The notes under the pieces were generated by a model that saw only the letters and a program-made list of their open reading frames with translations, did not search any database and was not told the DNA's origin. Both the position numbers and the translations under genes were made by a program. From contig CAZERF010000006.1 of NCBI GenBank assembly GCA_964515375.1, forward strand, positions 16,133-80,132: a stretch of 64,000 nucleotides of DNA, read 5' to 3'. This DNA comes from an uncultured Candidatus Saccharibacteria bacterium (lineage in GTDB: Bacteria; Patescibacteriota; Minisyncoccia; Phycocordibacterales; UBA6899). Position 1 is the stretch's first letter; every line of letters starts with the position of its first letter. Below are positions 6,484 through 59,748 of this stretch, piece by piece.

Positions 6484-8181
6484 CTATTCACCGGCAAATA
6501 GTCGCGCGAGACGGATATCCTCGAACGACACTTCATCATTCAGGAGTCGCTTCACGGGGGTGAGTCGTCCTTCTTCCTCCGTTCCCTCGATCTCTTTAAA
6601 CGCGTCACGAACTCGCGCAATGAGCCCGCTCGGAAAGGTTGCCTTCAAGTGCGTAATGTCGGGAGGTGTATCACCATGAAGTAATTCTTCGATGTGCTTT
6701 ACGATCGTCCCAAACGTAAGCCCCCGGATCGCAATGATCTCCGCGACACTCTTCCCTTCTGCAAGTAACGCGCGTGTGACCTCGCGCGAATGGATCTTTC
6801 CCGCACGTTCATCGTGCTCATCAGAAGAATCCGCCCGCACTTCTCCTTTCTTTGGAAATCTTCCTCCACATGCGCTCACGAAGTTATGGTGCATAAGCGA
6901 AAGATCCTTCGGCTCCATCCCTTCGAACGCCTGAGCGGTGATCGTCGACGCCTCACGAAAGACGCGGTCGTGTTCAAGCACAAGCGGGTGCACCTCAAGC
7001 GCTCGAGCATTGATTCCCTTCAAATGAAGGCCCGCGAGCGTCCGCACACGCGAGAGCGCGACATACCCCTGCCCATACTCAAACGCACGAGAGAGATCCA
7101 TGATCGCCGCATCCATGCTCATTCCTTGACTCTTGTGGATCGTGATCGCCCACGCGAGGCGGAGCGGGATCTGATTCAGTTTCGCCAACGTCTTCCCTTC
7201 TTCCTCGATCGCCCATTCGGCCGGTCCCGCCGTGACCTCCTCTCCGTCGCGTGTTTCCACGACAGGAAAGCCCGTCTCTTCGTCAAAACGCACAACAATA
7301 CCGAGCGTGCCGTTCACGTATCCCGCGTCAAAATTGTTCTTCGTAAACATGACGACCGCCCCCTCTTTGAGCGCAAGCTCCTCCGGAGAAAGGCACCCTT
7401 TCTTCATCTGCTCCACAAGCGTCGACCTGCCGTGCGCGAGCATGCGAAACACTTCGGTCTTCCCGGCAAGCCGACCAAGCTCCTCGAGATTTTTCCGATC
7501 GACGTCCATGTTGTGCGTGAAAAGATGCGGCACGTCGTCGGGATGTTCGTCTCCGGGGGTGTGGCGATCGGAGAGACATTCGTACACCGCATCGTCCACA
7601 TCGCCACGACGAATTGCGCCCAGTGTTGAAAGGAACGTCATATCATCTTGACGATGTTGCTCGGAGAGATAACACACGAGGGGATTGAGCTTCGCCCACA
7701 CGGAAGACTCAAACGCGAACTGCTTGGGCACTTCCCCCATCTTCGCGATCGGCGGAAGTTGAAAGAAATCACCGACAAGCACAACCTGAAGTCCACCAAA
7801 AGGTTCCTCGGATCGACGGAGCGAGCGAGTGACCTCTTCCACCATCGCAAGCGTCGCACCGTCCAACATCGACACTTCATCAATGATGAGCACCTTCGCC
7901 CGCGTGATACGCTTGACCAACGGCTCCCTCATCGAAAGGTCATCAAGATCTCGATCGGTGAGCGTACGACGAATACCGATCCCGCTCCATGAATGGATCG
8001 TCATGCCACCCACATGTGTCGCGGCGATTCCGGTCGACGCAGTGATGGAGGGAGCGATGTCGTGCTCGCGCAGGTAGCGCACATAAGCATTCACGGTATG
8101 CGTCTTGCCACTTCCCGGCTCACCGGTCAAAAAGACGTTCGCCCCTGTCTTTAGTATTTCAAGTGCCGTTTCCTGTCGCAT
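6484..8181 (-). CDS. PIF1/RecD-like superfamily 1 DNA helicase (AAA_30 + UvrD_C-like) with a C-terminal helical extension
   Basis: Walker A GEPGSGKTH, Walker B LIIDEVSM, and a downstream motif QGMSMDAAIMDL typical of this family. Confidence 0.7.
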   Translation of the reverse strand: MRQETALEILKTGANVFLTGEPGSGKTHTVNAYVRYLREHDIAPSITASTGIAATHVGGMTIHSWSGIGIRRTLTDRDLDDLSMREPLVKRITRAKVLIIDEVSMLDGATLAMVEEVTRSLRRSEEPFGGLQVVLVGDFFQLPPIAKMGEVPKQFAFESSVWAKLNPLVCYLSEQHRQDDMTFLSTLGAIRRGDVDDAVYECLSDRHTPGDEHPDDVPHLFTHNMDVDRKNLEELGRLAGKTEVFRMLAHGRSTLVEQMKKGCLSPEELALKEGAVVMFTKNNFDAGYVNGTLGIVVRFDEETGFPVVETRDGEEVTAGPAEWAIEEEGKTLAKLNQIPLRLAWAITIHKSQGMSMDAAIMDLSRAFEYGQGYVALSRVRTLAGLHLKGINARALEVHPLVLEHDRVFREASTITAQAFEGMEPKDLSLMHHNFVSACGGRFPKKGEVRADSSDEHDERAGKIHSREVTRALLAEGKSVAEIIAIRGLTFGTIVKHIEELLHGDTPPDITHLKATFPSGLIARVRDAFKEIEGTEEEGRLTPVKRLLNDEVSFEDIRLARLFAGE

Positions 8182-8341
8182 ATCTGACTAGCATACGTGT
8201 ATTTGAGAGGCGGAGCAAGAATACCAGTTTGGACTAAGGCAAGGCGGTATTATCGACATCTTGATCATTTTGTGGTTACATTCGCAAAGATGTCATCCGT
8301 CACTTCACAAGAAGTGCCCGAACGAACAACCGGAGAATTTT

Positions 8342-8560
8342 ATGACCACATTTCGTCGAGAAGTGTTTCACCCTCACCCCATTGCGCGAATTTTCGTGGA
8401 GACGACCACTCCTCTCACTACCGAGTTGTTGGATACCCTGCGTGGCATTCCAGGAATCTCGGAAGCAACCAAACACCACTCCTGCCTTGTGAGCGTGCGA
8501 CCCACCACCGAAGAAGACTGCGCTGGAGTAGCGAAGAAACTCTCCGAGCTCCTCAAATAA
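8342..8560 (+). CDS. Small hypothetical protein (72 aa). Cytoplasmic paralog of the downstream secreted protein. Ends in ELLK.
   Basis: SD GGAG 7 nt upstream of the ATG. The C-terminal half aligns with the protein at 8737-9069. RBS context caaccggagaa is conserved. Confidence 0.4.
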   Translation: MTTFRREVFHPHPIARIFVETTTPLTTELLDTLRGIPGISEATKHHSCLVSVRPTTEEDCAGVAKKLSELLK

Positions 8561-58199: not shown

Positions 58200-58270
58200 A
58201 GCGGGATGGAGGAGCGGTACCTCGTCAGGCTCATAACCTGAAGGCCCTGGTTCGATTCCAGGTCCCGCAA
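58200..58270 (+). tRNA. Initiator tRNA-Met (anticodon CAU, 1:72 mismatch)
   Basis: Close to the E. coli tRNA-fMet design: AGCGGGA-UG-GAGG-AGCGGUA-CCUC-G-UCAGG-CUCAUAA-CCUGA-AGGC-CCUGG-UUCGAUU-CCAGG-UCCCGCA-A. Position 1 A is unpaired with A72. Terminator at 58282-58316. Confidence 0.7.
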
Positions 58271-58371
58271 CATGAACAAAAGAACATCCCTCCAAGAGAG
58301 GGATGTTCTTTTGTTTGCGTGGAATAAAGAGGTATTGCCGTTTCTGAATTTTTTGCTATGATTCGTGCATT

Positions 58372-58445
58372 GTCGGCGTAGCTCAGTCGGTTAGAGCGTG
58401 GGACTCATAAGCCCGAGGTCGGAGGTTCGATTCCTCCCGCCGACA
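58372..58445 (+). tRNA. tRNA with a CAU anticodon (elongator Met, or Ile2 if lysidine-modified)
   Basis: GUCGGCG-UA-GCUC-AGUCGGUUA-GAGC-G-UGGGA-CUCAUAA-GCCCG-AGGUC-GGAGG-UUCGAUU-CCUCC-CGCCGAC-A. Confidence 0.7.
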
Positions 58446-58643
58446 CAAGAAAGACACACCAGTGGCTTTCGGTTCGGCGAGCGGGTGAAGATTTCTCTCG
58501 TCGTACATGTGTTTTGATTTTCTGTGAGTTGTGCTAGGATAGGAACGTTCGCGATGATAAGAAATGCTGATAAAAAAACATTCTTGTCCACCGCGGCATT
58601 CGGAGAAAATAAGAATGATGCATTTTTATTTTCATCCTCATTT

Positions 58644-58717
58644 GCGGTGGTAGCTCAACTGGTTAGAGCACCCGCCTGTCACGTGGGAGGTTGCGGGTTC
58701 GAGTCCCGTCCGCCGCG
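58644..58717 (+). tRNA. tRNA-Asp (anticodon GUC)
   Basis: GCGGUGG-UA-GCUC-AACUGGUUA-GAGC-A-CCCGC-CUGUCAC-GUGGG-AGGUU-GCGGG-UUCGAGU-CCCGU-CCGCCGC-G. Confidence 0.85.
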
Positions 58718-59125
58718 CAAATGCAAAAGCACCCCGAAAGGGGTGGTTTTGTTTGTGCGGTGGAGGAAGCATCTGCATGCTTCCGTGCGGGACGAGAAAA
58801 CCTTGGTGATGTTTTGGCCCTGCAAAACCACCAAGGTGTACCGCTCCAGTAAGGAGAGAGTCCCGTCCGCCGCGCAAATGCAAAAATCCGCTGTTTAGGC
58901 GGATTTTTGTTTGCGTGGCGGAGGAAGTGCCCTGCGGCACTTCCGACGGGACTCGAAAGGGTTTTCGTTATTTATGAGCGCATCGCGCGAATAAATCGAA
59001 AACCACCCGCGGCGGTAGCCGAGAGTCCCCGTATTTTCACCGCGCAAATGCAAAAGCACCCCGAAAGGGGTGATTTTGTTTGTGCGGTGGAGGAAGCATC
59101 TGCATGCTTCCGAAAATAAACGAGG
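58718..59125 (+). repeat. Three tandem tRNA-Asp-derived structured units. Each is: CAAAUGCAAAA spacer, terminator hairpin, acceptor-like GCGGUGG, CUGC-loop hairpin, T-stem with a long inserted hairpin, tRNA-Asp 3' end. The last unit is truncated.
   Basis: Near-identical 74-bp blocks at 58713-58786 and 59039-59112, with a diverged copy at 58873-58946. Exact copies of the tRNA-Asp 3' 17-mer gagtcccgtccgccgcg lie at 58858-58874. Hairpins carry compensatory changes (ggaagcat-ctgc-atgcttcc versus ggaagtgcc-ctgc-ggcacttcc; gcaccccgaaaggggtg versus atccgctgtttaggcggat). Confidence 0.7.
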
Positions 59126-59127
59126 AG

Positions 59128-59748
59128 TCAAAGATACCCCAACTCCTTGAAGACACGATAATAAATGTTGATCGTTTGTTCCGCTTCGGAACGAGAGAGC
59201 GGATAGTCGGTTCCCTTGTGCGCGATCGCATTGCGTACCTTGTGCGCCTGCCACGCCTCATCGAGATACGGAAAATCACTTGCTTCGATCATCTTCATGC
59301 GTTCGCCGAGGGTGCTTCCTTCGTAACCCATTCGCTCGACGATCTCATCAAGAATATTGTCCGCCTCAAGAATACCGATCTTCCAATCTGAAGAGTTTGT
59401 GGATGCCATGTATTCTTCCACCTTCCCCCATCGGACATTCTTTTGAGCCTTCTCCGTGGTCCAGTTGAGCAAAAGTCCGAGCTTCTTGTTCTCCTCGGCG
59501 GAAAGTTCGCCGATACGCATATACGCATAGACTGCGACAGCAAGAGCCGCCATCACAACAAGCGTGGATATAAGTTTAAGAATATTGAGTACCGAAGAAA
59601 GGATCCCCGTGACCTCAGTACTCCTCCCTGCCGCACCCACCAACTCCAGCACCACAGGAAGAAAGACAAAAAGCACAACCAGAATAGCGACAAGTTCGAG
59701 TGTACTTGGTCCCGCTGGGGGTGGTGCCGGTTTCTTTGCGTCAGCCAT
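59128..59748 (-). CDS. Membrane-anchored protein with a C-terminal HEPN-like domain (R-x4-H motif)
   Basis: Two N-terminal transmembrane helices. C-terminal …AHKVRNAIAHKGTDYPL contains an Rx4H motif of the kind seen in HEPN domains. Assignment is weak. Confidence 0.45.
   Translation of the reverse strand: MADAKKPAPPPAGPSTLELVAILVVLFVFLPVVLELVGAAGRSTEVTGILSSVLNILKLISTLVVMAALAVAVYAYMRIGELSAEENKKLGLLLNWTTEKAQKNVRWGKVEEYMASTNSSDWKIGILEADNILDEIVERMGYEGSTLGERMKMIEASDFPYLDEAWQAHKVRNAIAHKGTDYPLSRSEAEQTINIYYRVFKELGYL

What the first reader, a model, noticed from the sequence alone, without database searches (positions are those of the whole stretch)
58718..59125. Tandem tRNA-Asp-derived structured RNA units, each with its own terminator, downstream of an intact tRNA-Asp
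Directly after tRNA-Asp(GUC) the sequence repeats a composite unit three times. The units start at 58718, 58878 and 59044, and the last is cut short near 59112.

Each unit has these parts:
- a CAAAUGCAAAA spacer;
- a strong hairpin plus U-tract terminator;
- GCGGUGG (or CGUGGCGG), which is the tRNA-Asp acceptor 5' strand;
- an 8-9 bp hairpin with a conserved CUGC loop;
- GCGGGAC, which is the tRNA-Asp T-stem 5' strand;
- a long inserted hairpin of differing sequence but the same shape (ACCUUGGUG…CACCAAGGU with inner GUUUUG/CAAAAC in unit 1; GGUUUUCG…CGAAAACC with inner AUUUAU/AUAAAU in unit 2);
- a small hairpin;
- GAGUCCCGUCCGCCGCG, which is exactly the tRNA-Asp T-loop/T-stem/acceptor 3' end.

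So each unit between terminators has tRNA-like ends (acceptor plus T-arm) but lacks D and anticodon arms and carries a big insertion in the T-loop. Compensatory substitutions in both hairpins across units (ggaagcat/atgcttcc versus ggaagtgcc/ggcacttcc; gcacccc/ggggtg versus atccgc/gcggat) argue for selection on RNA structure rather than neutral decay. The two outer 74-bp blocks are identical except for 1 nt although the inner copy is diverged, which points to gene conversion or constraint. This does not fit a CRISPR array, a retron (no RT), or a simple integrase att scar (duplications include the terminator and extra modules; no integrase nearby).
Basis: seen in the sequence. Interest (0 to 1): 0.78.

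Follow-up and report, generated by a model that had tools for sequence, protein, structure and literature searches.

The report
tRNA-end-mimicking structured elements behind tRNA genes
The repeats after this tRNA-Asp gene are real and belong to an apparently undescribed family of strongly folded ~115-165-base elements that sit right behind tRNA genes in Paceibacteria (candidate phyla radiation) and copy that tRNA's 3' end in both orientations; what they do is unknown.

Summary
tRNA-Asp (58644-58718) is followed by two complete units (58755-58875, 58913-59045) and a truncated third (59082-59112). Each is preceded by a terminator-like hairpin. Both complete units fold into the same five-helix shape (z = -7.5 and -5.8).

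The units are not a local oddity. About 20 related units occur in other Paceibacteria loci. Every recognisable one with a visible upstream flank lies directly 3' of a tRNA gene, in sense (two sit at a contig end).
- Hosts are mostly tRNA-Asp, but also initiator and elongator tRNA-Met and tRNA-Thr.
- The 5' arm is the reverse complement of the host tRNA's positions ~54-73, split by a perfect hairpin that usually carries a CUGC loop.
- The 3' arm is a direct copy of positions ~57-73.
- Core hairpins are homologous across different tRNA hosts.

Stems covary (91% of cells paired versus 69% when shuffled). The tRNA-sense strand folds better in 17 of 17 units. No Rfam family matches, and no integrase, reverse transcriptase or large island is present.

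Best reading (about 0.45): a new family of tRNA-flank structured RNAs, with arms re-templated from the neighbouring tRNA gene and arrays grown by unequal crossover. A DNA-level palindromic element is the main rival. Transcription and function are untested.

The parts
58644..58718 (+). Intact tRNA-Asp(GUC), no encoded CCA. Its positions ~54-73 are the template for the arms of the units.
   Evidence: ARAGORN; Rfam RF00005 67.3 bits.
58719..58755 (+). Spacer AAATGCAAAA plus terminator-like hairpin T1 (stem 58730-58745, loop GAAA) and an interrupted U-tract.
   Evidence: The hairpin is predicted as a terminator on both strands.
58755..58875 (+). Unit 1. Outer 5' strand 58755-58763. H1 58765-58784 (loop CUGC 58773-58776). 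Inner 5' strand 58787-58793. H2 58800-58837. H3 58844-58856 (loop AGUAA). 3' arm 58858-58875, identical to tRNA-Asp 58701-58718.
   Evidence: Fold: -63.9 kcal/mol, z -7.45. Covariance-model hit 58755-58874, 94.1 bits. Repeat D2.
58876..58912 (+). Spacer AAATGCAAAA plus terminator-like hairpin T2 (11-bp stem 58881-58891 / 58899-58909) and U-tract. Its stem sequence differs from T1.
   Evidence: I12; fold.
58913..59045 (+). Unit 2. Outer 5' strand 58913-58921. H1 58923-58944 (loop CUGC 58932-58935). Inner 5' strand 58946-58957, which is the reverse complement of the tRNA T-loop and T-stem 3' strand. H2 58960-59004. H3 59010-59021 (loop GGUA). Degenerate 3' arm 59023-59045.
   Evidence: Fold: -67.5 kcal/mol, z -5.78. 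Covariance-model hit 58913-59044, 95.7 bits. I8 inverted repeat. BLAST homology to the L082 unit.
59046..59081 (+). Spacer plus second copy of terminator-like hairpin T1 (stem 59057-59072).
   Evidence: (D1).
59082..59112 (+). Truncated unit 3: outer 5' strand and H1 only. It is 99% identical to the start of unit 1 and breaks off at CTTCCG|AAAATAAACG.
   Evidence: D1: 73 nt, 1 mismatch. The junction is confirmed in the independent assembly L171.
58275..58322 (+). Possible remnant behind initiator tRNA-Met (58200-58271): an 18-bp perfect hairpin followed by TTTTGTTTGCGTGG, identical to the start of unit 2 and partly complementary to that tRNA's acceptor 3' strand. No H1 or core is present.
   Evidence: I1, D5, I7. 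This is sequence reading only and was not tested further.

Best explanation
The feature is a tandem array of two complete copies and one truncated copy of an apparently undescribed family of small (about 115-165 nt), highly structured non-coding elements. These elements live immediately 3' of tRNA genes in Paceibacteria (Patescibacteria, the candidate phyla radiation).

**Anatomy (shown)**
- The 5' arm is the reverse complement of the upstream tRNA's positions ~54-73.
- The 5' arm is interrupted, exactly at the T-stem/acceptor boundary, by a perfect 7-11-bp hairpin (H1). H1 usually has a CUGC loop.
- The core holds two further hairpins (H2, H3). These fall into a few sequence subfamilies.
- The 3' arm is a direct copy of tRNA positions ~57-73.
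- The two arms pair, giving two stacked three-way junctions. The closing helix reproduces the base pairs of that tRNA's acceptor and T stems.
- A terminator-like hairpin usually separates the tRNA from the unit, and units from each other.

**How it most likely works (inferred)**
- The unit is made as RNA in the tRNA sense, as part of the tRNA operon transcript, by read-through of leaky hairpins.
- It folds on its own.
- It may be trimmed by the tRNA end-processing machinery, because its ends imitate a tRNA acceptor stem. Its role would be as a mimic or decoy of the tRNA top half, or some other structured RNA function.

**Evolution (inferred)**
- At the DNA level the arms are re-copied from the adjacent tRNA gene by replication template switching across the terminator palindrome.
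- Arrays grow by unequal crossover at the repeated tRNA 3'-end copy.
- This would explain how the same core modules sit behind different tRNAs with matching arms, and why the outer 73-nt blocks here are nearly identical.
For: **Structure**
- The two window units give z -7.45 and -5.78. Eight units from other loci give z -2.4 to -8.25 with the same architecture.

**Family and position**
- Copies of a tRNA's own 3' end lie 130-190 nt downstream in 9 of 34 tRNA-Asp, 5 of 85 tRNA-Met and 1 of 18 tRNA-Thr(GGU) loci.
- The folds are equivalent behind the different tRNAs.
- All BLASTN matches to unit cores in 1.44 Mb lie directly 3' of a tRNA gene in sense, apart from two short stray matches and two at contig ends.
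- Of 16 CTGC-loop perfect hairpins, 11 lie 15-60 nt behind a sense tRNA or inside the window array, against 2 clearly unrelated ones.
- A covariance model built from 6 units finds 10 further units at E < 0.01 in 862 kb, all where the BLAST and hairpin scans had placed units or directly behind a tRNA gene. They include L121 at 78.7 bits and the new L100.

**Covariation**
- On the model-based alignment, 91.4% of cells pair versus 69.4% when shuffled (0 of 500 shuffles reach it).
- 20 of 24 pairs change on both sides.
- Slid controls give 34-48%.
- A hand-segmented alignment gives 85.4% versus 53.8%.

**Strand**
- The tRNA-sense strand is more stable in 17 of 17 units (p = 1.5e-5) and in 16 of 17 cores.

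**Modules shared across tRNA hosts**
- L083 (Asp) and L090 (Met) share CCTTCTCCCATAT...ATGGGAAAGG(G/T)GTACTG.
- L040 (Asp) and L103 (Met) share AGACGGAGGC...GAGTCGGGG...TGTGACC.
- L090 (Met) and L091 (Asp) have an identical 22-nt H1.

**Internal consistency of a unit**
- In L082 the unit's arms match each other but not the local, aberrant tRNA-Asp 3' end.

**Transcription (weak)**
- In L091 a unit lies between tRNA-Met and tRNA-Asp, and no sigma-70-like promoter is predicted between them.
- tRNA-Asp in the window has no promoter-like site of its own.

**Template switching**
- The conserved GAA after the inner 5' strand (15-17 of 18 units) complements the tRNA's T54-C56, which the unit's own 3' arm lacks.
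- H1 stems are perfect, and the L082 unit has an inverted loop (GCAG).
- Perfect stems and inverted loops are signatures described for template-switch mutations (PMC8794818).
Against: - There is no expression data of any kind.
- Each unit is usually preceded by a hairpin plus U-tract with no space for its own promoter, so transcription depends on read-through.
- The outer stem often also pairs the discriminator and the next base (GCGC...GCGC), and there is no T-loop. The unit is therefore not a canonical RNase P, RNase Z or CCA-enzyme substrate.
- H1 is a perfect Watson-Crick palindrome almost everywhere, with no G-U pairs, and its loop can be inverted. That is more typical of DNA-level palindrome dynamics than of a sequence-specific RNA loop.
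- The strand-stability asymmetry could partly reflect loop energies, and the units are not independent of each other.
- Both alignments used for covariation were fitted to the structure.
- Junctions inside some arrays (L096, L121) are irregular and could be assembly artefacts.
- Sampling covers only neighbourhoods of gatA, which is a single tRNA cluster.
Confidence: 0.45

Rival explanations
1. A DNA-level element. The units are small non-autonomous palindromic DNA elements or recombination sites. They would act as folded single-stranded DNA or cruciforms, in the manner of integron attC sites or the CTX-phage attP hairpin. They would be inserted or amplified at the 3' end of tRNA genes by a nuclease or recombinase encoded elsewhere. 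The RNA fold would be a by-product.
For: - The inserts are flanked by direct repeats of the tRNA 3' end starting in the T-loop, the classic crossover zone.
- Presence and copy number (0-3) are patchy among relatives, and different subfamilies sit in tandem.
- The same cores lie behind different tRNAs.
- H1 palindromes are perfect, with occasional loop inversion.
- The long palindrome formed by the tRNA 3' half, the terminator hairpin and the 5' arm continues into the genomic trailer rather than into CCA.
- One related insert (L024) carries a GIY-YIG nuclease ORF between tRNA-Asp and the 3'-end copy.
Against: - No integrase, transposase, HUH or RT gene lies in the window flanks.
- No insert longer than 0.5 kb bounded by 3'-end copies was found behind any tRNA gene ARAGORN called in the fetched loci.
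- No unit copy lies away from a tRNA 3' flank, and none was found in viral contigs.
- Orientation is always tRNA-sense, and the sense strand folds better.
- The architecture is kept across lineages whose GatA is only about 50% identical, which argues for selection on the fold.
- The L024 insert lacks the 5' arm and H1, so its link to the family is weak.
Confidence: 0.25
2. Neutral by-product. Repeated template switching and unequal crossover around the tRNA terminator have produced alternating inverted and direct copies of the tRNA 3' end that are slowly decaying. They have no function as RNA or as DNA.
For: - The third unit is truncated and unit 2's 3' arm is degenerate.
- Remnant-like fragments lie behind the two tRNA-Met genes of the window.
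- Array junctions are irregular in L096 and L121.
- Template switching can make perfect hairpins in a single step (PMC8794818).
Against: - The same five-helix architecture, the CUGC loop (13 of 18 units) and core sequence motifs are kept in lineages with about 50% GatA identity and behind different tRNAs.
- All 23-24 stem pairs covary while staying paired.
- These are very compact genomes, in which roughly 150-450 bp of junk at a conserved position would not be expected to persist.
Confidence: 0.12
3. Tandem-terminator or insulator array. What is selected is the multiplication of intrinsic terminators behind a strongly transcribed tRNA operon that faces a convergent gene. The structured spacers would be incidental.
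For: - Three terminator-like hairpins lie in 360 bp between tRNA-Asp and the convergent 206-aa gene.
- In most loci each 3'-end copy is followed by an A-rich/hairpin/T-rich bidirectional terminator.
Against: - This does not explain the arms complementary to the tRNA, the conserved H1, or the shared cores.
- Units also occur between co-oriented tRNA genes (L091, L103).
- One unit follows its tRNA with no terminator at all (L088, tRNA-Thr).
Confidence: 0.08
4. Scars (attL/attR remnants) of classical integrase-mediated islands or prophages that integrated into the tRNA-Asp T-loop and were later deleted down to about 150 bp.
For: Direct repeats of the tRNA 3' end begin in the T-loop and extend 10 nt into the spacer. 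tRNA 3' ends are classic integration sites (established knowledge).
Against: - There is no integrase or cargo anywhere.
- About 20 independent loci all have the same size and internal architecture, which random deletion would not produce.
- In single-unit loci the repeat stops at the tRNA end.
Confidence: 0.05

Closest known systems
E. coli tyrT downstream 178-bp repeats / rtT RNA (Rfam RF00391). Recalled from the literature; the description of the tyrT repeat was not checked here.
   Same: Tandem repeat units lie immediately 3' of a tRNA gene. Each carries a copy of the tRNA's 3' end, and they are thought to be released from the tRNA operon transcript by tRNA-processing enzymes. Arrays are generated by unequal recombination at the repeated tRNA end.
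   Different: No sequence or structure match was found; nothing beyond tRNA appears in an Rfam scan at E <= 10. The tyrT unit is not known to carry a 5' arm complementary to the tRNA end. It is not known behind several different tRNAs with re-matched arms, and it is enterobacterial.
tRNA-like processing elements: plant mitochondrial t-elements (PMC1920247, surfaced), mascRNA, the tmRNA tRNA-like domain, bacterial Y-RNA-like YrlA
   Same: These are non-tRNA RNAs that imitate the acceptor/T-arm half of a tRNA and are handled by RNase P, RNase Z or the CCA-adding enzyme.
   Different: Here there is no T-loop or elbow. The mimic reproduces the specific neighbouring tRNA's base pairs and extends the helix through the T-loop. 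No Rfam match was found (YrlA 14 bits, E = 7.5; mascRNA aligns only to the real tRNA). Processing is untested.
Attachment sites of tRNA-integrating elements (crossover in the T-loop) and folded single-stranded recombination sites (integron attC, CTX-phage attP)
   Same: There are direct repeats of the tRNA 3' end starting in the T-loop. The elements are imperfect palindromes whose structure is conserved while sequence varies, and they form tandem arrays.
   Different: No recombinase gene, no cargo, a constant size of about 150 bp, a strict sense orientation, and no copies outside tRNA flanks.
Hairpins created or maintained by replication template switching (PMC8794818)
   Same: Perfect stems, multi-base compensatory changes in one step, inverted loops, and reverse-complement copies of adjacent sequence.
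   Different: That is a mutational mechanism, not a functional class. It would explain how the arms track the tRNA, but not why the architecture and loops are conserved.

Membership tests
tRNA gene or pseudogene (Rfam RF00005 / ARAGORN) | Cloverleaf with D, anticodon and T arms that scores against the tRNA model | tested here: not met
   ARAGORN and Rfam call only the true tRNA-Asp. No tRNA hit falls on 58755-59112 even at E <= 10.
rtT RNA / tyrT-type tRNA-linked repeats | Tandem repeats 3' of a tRNA gene, each containing the tRNA's 3'-terminal sequence | tested here: met
   A 28-nt block including the last 18 nt of tRNA-Asp is repeated at 58701 and 58858, and in degenerate form at 59028.
rtT RNA / tyrT-type tRNA-linked repeats | Match to the RF00391 covariance model | tested here: not met
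   No rtT hit appears in permissive Rfam scans of the window region or of five other loci.
Integrase-mediated island or prophage att sites at tRNA genes | Direct repeats of the tRNA 3' end bounding the insert | tested here: met
Integrase-mediated island or prophage att sites at tRNA genes | Integrase and cargo genes between or next to the repeats | tested here: not met
   The flanking ORFs are PBP1A, a methyltransferase, RF, FtsEX, CTP synthase, GatCA and LigA. No 3'-end copy lies 0.5 kb or further downstream of any tRNA gene ARAGORN called in the fetched loci.
Integron attC / CTX attP-type folded ssDNA sites | Imperfect palindrome with conserved structure and variable sequence | tested here: met
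Integron attC / CTX attP-type folded ssDNA sites | Adjacent integron integrase and attI, or a phage genome | tested here: not met
   None in the window or the loci. There were no viral-contig matches to the family motifs.
MITE / IS-derived repeat | Many dispersed copies with terminal inverted repeats at varied genomic sites | tested here: not met
   BLASTN and covariance-model searches of 0.86-1.44 Mb find copies only at tRNA 3' flanks. No other copy is present in the 64-kb window.
Retron ncRNA | Adjacent reverse transcriptase gene | tested here: not met
   No RT gene among the flanking ORFs.
Type III toxin-antitoxin (toxI-like repeat array) | Tandem RNA repeats followed, after a terminator, by a co-oriented toxin gene | tested here: not met
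   The next gene is convergent (59128-59748, minus strand) and is a conserved membrane protein with no Pfam nuclease domain.
tRNA-like processing elements (t-elements and relatives) | Acceptor-stem plus T-arm mimic | tested here: inconclusive
   Acceptor and T-stem base pairs are reproduced, but there is no T-loop and the helix often extends over the discriminator.
tRNA-like processing elements (t-elements and relatives) | Cleavage by RNase P or RNase Z, or CCA addition | not testable with these tools
   Needs transcript-end mapping or in vitro assays.
Any curated RNA family (Rfam 15) | Score at or near a family's gathering threshold | tested here: not met
   Only tRNA (and, elsewhere, group I intron) hits were found. 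All other matches were far below threshold.

The most novel reading that the evidence does not exclude
These units are a new class of non-coding, tRNA-flank-specific mobile structured elements. Their two arms are copied from the 3' end of whichever tRNA gene they land behind. They are expressed as RNAs that imitate that particular tRNA's acceptor/T helix. This would make them a 'self-retargeting' tRNA-end mimic, for example a decoy for tRNA-specific enzymes or toxins, or a parasite of the tRNA transcription and processing machinery. They may be specific to candidate-phyla-radiation bacteria.
Probability: 0.3. Interest if true: 0.85.

Novelty: new variant of a known kind. Interest (0 to 1): 0.66.

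Why it matters
- **A lineage with few known regulators.** CPR/Patescibacteria have tiny genomes and few known non-coding RNAs beyond the universal ones. A conserved, strongly folded element family wedged behind tRNA genes would be one of the few lineage-specific RNA or DNA elements known there.
- **An unusual anatomy.** The arms reproduce the neighbouring tRNA's own acceptor and T-stem pairs and change with the tRNA, while the cores stay homologous. This raises a concrete, testable question: how can a non-coding element be re-templated to a new tRNA? Replication template switching is a plausible answer.
- **A possible new player in tRNA biology.** If the elements are expressed and processed like tRNAs, they would be a new kind of tRNA mimic. 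They could bear on tRNA maturation, toxin or phage interactions, or selfish use of tRNA operons.
- **A practical point for assembly.** The units break short-read assemblies at tRNA clusters (L171 ends inside the repeat; L040 contains an N gap).

Tried and rejected
1. **Phage attP or prophage origin.** BLASTN of 58640-59130 against 50,697 phage records matched only the tRNA itself.
2. **Viral contigs.** Four scans for family motifs (GGTGCCCAGA..TCGAGGGA, the 22-nt H1, the subfamily A H3 motif, the subfamily B motif) gave only chance hits in unrelated coding regions, or nothing.
3. **Known ribozyme or sRNA.** Permissive Rfam scans gave nothing.
4. **Primer-binding site for mature tRNA.** Rejected, because the complementarity of the 5' arm continues into the genomic trailer (AAAT...) and not into CCA.
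5. **Insertion into the T-loop of a duplicated tRNA.** Rejected, because the inner 5' strand carries the inverted T-loop, not the direct one. Examples are L090 GGGAATCGCA and L103 AGTGGAATCGAA.
6. **Generic architecture scan.** A scan for a hairpin flanked by arms pairing with a downstream 15-mer was too noisy: 345 hits at 13 or more of 15 pairs.
7. **General anti-acceptor feature.** A test of whether a sequence complementary to the acceptor 3' strand follows all tRNA terminators showed no enrichment over controls (17 versus 13 and 11).
8. **Consensus fold of H2 and H3.** RNAalifold on a plain MAFFT alignment did not recover H2 or H3 because the cores are not alignable by sequence. They are supported only by per-sequence folds.
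9. **Literature.** Searches found no description of these elements. PMC13011429 covers only the group I introns in the same tRNA genes.
10. **Same-species polymorphism.** The only other assembly with the identical neighbouring gene ends inside the repeat.
Full report
**1. What is in the window**

The organism is a Patescibacteria (CPR) bacterium of the Paceibacteria type. Its GatA is at most 67-74% identical to any relative retrieved, and the best matches are Candidatus Lloydbacteria, Vogelbacteria and Paceibacteria MAGs.

The region holds a tRNA cluster: Thr, Thr (minus strand), then Met, Met, Asp (plus strand). It lies between housekeeping genes. Upstream are PBP1A, a methyltransferase, RF, FtsEX and CTP synthase. 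Downstream, convergent, are a conserved 206-aa membrane protein, GatA, GatC and LigA. No integrase, transposase or reverse transcriptase lies within 15 kb upstream or about 5 kb downstream, to the window end.

**2. The observation**

- The last 18 nt of tRNA-Asp plus a 10-nt spacer form a 28-nt block. It is repeated exactly at 58858 and degenerately at 59028.
- The spacer motif CGCAAATGCAAAA occurs exactly three times.
- Terminator-like hairpins follow each copy.
- The 73-nt blocks 58713-58785 and 59040-59112 differ at one base.
- The two full units (58755-58875 and 58913-59045) have different sequence but fold into the same shape. Energies are far below shuffled controls: -63.9 kcal/mol (z -7.45) and -67.5 kcal/mol (z -5.78).
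- The shape is an outer stem, hairpin H1 with a CUGC loop, an inner stem, a long hairpin H2 and a short hairpin H3.
- The third unit stops after H1. An independent Logan assembly (L171) has the same junction, and its contig ends inside the repeat.

Three corrections apply.
- Unit 2's 3' arm is degenerate.
- The 'T-stem 5' strand' is really the reverse complement of the T-loop plus T-stem 3' strand (I8: 13 of 13 bases complementary). The inner stem is therefore an extended helix, not a T-arm with an inserted loop.
- The terminator-like hairpins precede the units as well as following them, and leave no room for a promoter.

**3. It is a family, and not specific to tRNA-Asp**

I fetched 160 gatA-anchored loci from genome and metagenome collections and scanned behind every tRNA gene.

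A copy of the tRNA's own 3' end lies 130-190 nt downstream in 9 of 34 tRNA-Asp loci under a strict criterion. More appear with looser criteria, intron-containing tRNAs or the covariance model: L016, L083, L091 and L100. The same is true of 5 of 85 tRNA-Met and 1 of 18 tRNA-Thr(GGU) genes.

All these inserts fold like the window units. The constant plan is as follows.
- A terminator-like hairpin. It is absent in L088-Thr and short in L103.
- A 5' arm complementary to the adjacent tRNA's acceptor 3' strand.
- One or two A residues.
- H1, a perfect stem of 7-11 bp. Its loop is CUGC in 13 of 18 aligned units.
- G or GU.
- An inner 5' strand that is the reverse complement of T-stem 3' plus T-loop. 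It is clearly the inverted copy, for example GGGAATCGCA in L090 and AGTGGAATCGAA in L103.
- Core hairpins H2 and H3.
- A direct copy of the tRNA from mid T-loop to the discriminator.

The cores fall into a few subfamilies that cut across tRNA hosts.
- L083 (Asp), L090 and L121 (initiator Met), L093 (Asp) and window unit 1 share ...CCUU..AAGG(U/G)GUAC, then H3 with a WGUAR loop, then GA.
- L040 (Asp) and L103 (Met) share AGACGGAGGC..GAGUCGGGG..UGUGACC.
- L091 (Asp), L096 (Met) and L007 (Asp) share GGUGCCCAGA..UCGAGGGA.
- Window unit 2 matches the L082 unit.
- The 22-nt H1 of L090 (Met), L091 (Asp) and L081 is identical.

**4. Specificity of location**

- BLASTN of unit cores against all 1.44 Mb held gave matches only directly 3' of tRNA genes in sense, or further along such arrays. 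The exceptions are two short stray matches and two matches at contig ends where the upstream tRNA is off the contig.
- Among all perfect hairpins with 4-nt loops, CTGC is the second most common loop. Eleven of the 16 instances are unit H1s lying 15-60 nt behind a sense tRNA or inside the window array.
- A covariance model built from six units recovered, in 862 kb, 10 further units at E < 0.01. They include L121 (78.7 bits, not in the seed), L088-Thr (39.9) and a new one in L100. All lie where the BLAST and hairpin scans had already placed units, or directly behind a tRNA gene. Nothing else in the 64-kb window matched.
- No tRNA gene had a 3'-end copy 0.5 kb or further away in its locus, so there are no large islands.
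- No Rfam family matches any subfamily.
- Phage records and viral contigs gave nothing relevant.

**5. Covariation and strand**

- On the model-derived alignment of 18 units, 91.4% of cells in the outer stem, H1 and inner stem pair, versus 69.4% in shuffles (0 of 500). Twenty of 24 pairs change on both sides, and slid controls give 34-48%.
- A hand-segmented alignment gave 85.4% versus 53.8%.
- Both alignments are fitted to the structure, so the figures lean in its favour. The contrast with the slid controls is nevertheless large.
- H2 and H3 could not be aligned by sequence and rest on per-sequence folds. Closely related pairs do show compensatory changes. For example, the H2 base is GGUUUUCG/CGAAAACC in unit 2 and GGAUUUCG/CGAAAUCC in L082.
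- The tRNA-sense strand is the more stable in 17 of 17 units (sum -1024 versus -910 kcal/mol, p = 1.5e-5) and in 16 of 17 cores, with 45 versus 25 G-U pairs.
- In L082 the unit's two arms match each other, and the window's tRNA-Asp, but not L082's own aberrant tRNA-Asp end. The pairing is therefore a property of the unit.

**6. How the arms relate to the tRNA**

The 5' arm, the terminator hairpin and the tRNA's 3' half together form one long near-perfect palindrome. In L083 it has about 37-bp arms and continues into the genomic trailer, not into CCA. The arm is therefore a copy of the gene, not a binding site for mature tRNA.

The GAA that ends the inner 5' strand is conserved in 15-17 of 18 units and complements T54-C56 of the tRNA. 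The unit's own 3' arm does not contain those bases. This points to the upstream tRNA gene as the template.

Three features are the signatures reported for replication template switching (PMC8794818):
- perfect stems;
- one-step multi-base compensation;
- an inverted H1 loop (GCAG) in L082.

I therefore infer that template switching across the terminator palindrome keeps the arms matched to the local tRNA and allows retargeting. This is not shown.

The window array (u1, u2, u1') is most simply an unequal crossover at the repeated 3'-end copy followed by a deletion. That accounts for the 99% identity of the outer blocks.

**7. What it does**

This is inference. Four points favour a sense RNA made from the tRNA operon by read-through:
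- the constant sense orientation;
- the strand asymmetry;
- the conserved loops;
- the fact that tRNA genes inside these clusters are themselves separated by hairpins without recognisable promoters. tRNA-Asp in the window has none, and in L091 a unit lies between tRNA-Met and tRNA-Asp with no predicted promoter between them.

The closing helix reproduces the tRNA's acceptor and T-stem pairs, so recognition by tRNA-handling proteins is conceivable. However, there is no T-loop, and the helix often covers the discriminator, so canonical processing is uncertain.

A DNA-level role cannot be excluded. The evidence for it is the perfect palindromes, the loop inversion, the patchy distribution, and one related insert carrying a GIY-YIG ORF (L024).

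My confidences are about 0.45 for a sense-RNA element family, 0.25 for a DNA-level element, 0.12 for a neutral by-product, 0.08 for a terminator array and 0.05 for integrase scars.

**8. Comparison with known systems**

- The nearest analogue in layout is the E. coli tyrT/rtT repeat, recalled from the literature. That layout is tandem units behind a tRNA gene, each holding its 3' end. It is not a member: there is no RF00391 match, and the architecture differs.
- In working principle the units resemble tRNA-like processing elements such as t-elements (PMC1920247) and mascRNA.
- At the DNA level they resemble att or attC-type sites.
- Defining features of each were tested where possible, and at least one fails for every family (see the membership table).

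I found no description in the searchable literature. The only Patescibacteria tRNA paper retrieved deals with group I introns (PMC13011429).

**9. Limits**

- All related loci come from one genomic neighbourhood (gatA and its tRNA cluster).
- MAG assemblies of repeats can be wrong (N gap in L040, odd junctions in L096 and L121).
- There are no expression data.

Noticed in passing
L083:7400-7660 (minus strand) and ORF upstream (~7700-8320); L103:7175-7400; L096 ~8420-8540: In L083, tRNA-Asp is interrupted after CCTGT (anticodon position 35/36) by an intron of about 240 nt and is preceded by an ORF with LAGLIDADG motifs. L103 has an Rfam group I intron hit (66.5 bits). L096 has an intron-containing initiator tRNA-Met. 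This matches the group I introns recently described in Patescibacteria tRNA genes (PMC13011429). ARAGORN misses these tRNAs.
   Followed up: partly
L024:8791-9250: Between tRNA-Asp and a 16-nt copy of its 3' end lies a 445-nt insert. It has its own promoter-like TATAAT and an 85-aa GIY-YIG nuclease ORF (PF01541, E = 2e-15). It has no 5' arm and no H1. Its right end (ACTTGACCGTC) resembles that of the L026 unit. It may be a nuclease-carrying relative, or an unrelated insertion at the same hotspot.
   Followed up: partly
window:58275-58322: Behind initiator tRNA-Met (58200-58271) there is an 18-bp perfect hairpin followed by TTTTGTTTGCGTGG. That sequence is identical to the start of unit 2 and similar to the 5' arm of the L090 tRNA-Met unit (GTTGCGTGGGAA). 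It looks like a remnant 5' arm without H1 or core.
   Followed up: no
window:58470-58495: Behind the second tRNA-Met (58372-58446), the stretch GTTCGGCGAGCGGGTGAAG is partly complementary to that tRNA's own 3' end (..CCTCCCGCCGAC). It may be another decayed arm.
   Followed up: no
L082:4547-4619 (minus strand): The tRNA-Asp called here has an aberrant T-loop region (GCGGGGTCAGCACCCGT, with no TTCRA) and a different acceptor stem from the unit behind it. The unit's arms instead match the window's tRNA-Asp. Either the tRNA 3' half was replaced or this is a pseudogene.
   Followed up: no
L082:4466-4491; L005:8982-9013: Two perfect hairpins carry the family's loop in inverted form: GCAG instead of CUGC, read in the tRNA sense. 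This is a loop inversion. The L005 hairpin abuts the 5' end of the next tRNA-Met and may simply be a terminator.
   Followed up: partly
L088:4374-4690: A roughly 300-nt insert between tRNA-Asp and a near-copy of its 3' end consists of several very long, GC-rich, perfect hairpins (MFE -165 kcal/mol over 340 nt). It is unlike the standard units.
   Followed up: no
L096:8575-8900; L121:2100-2250; L040:9110-9330: Arrays have irregular unit junctions. In L096 a 3'-end copy is joined to half an H1. In L121 a 3'-end copy is joined directly to the next inner 5' strand. L040 has a run of N inside the array. These are either real recombination products or assembly artefacts of repeats.
   Followed up: no
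window:58605-58633: An AT-only hairpin (GAAAATAAGAATG / CATTTTTATTTTC) sits just upstream of tRNA-Asp, and no promoter-like site is predicted for that tRNA. tRNA genes in this cluster therefore seem to be separated by hairpins and co-transcribed.
   Followed up: partly
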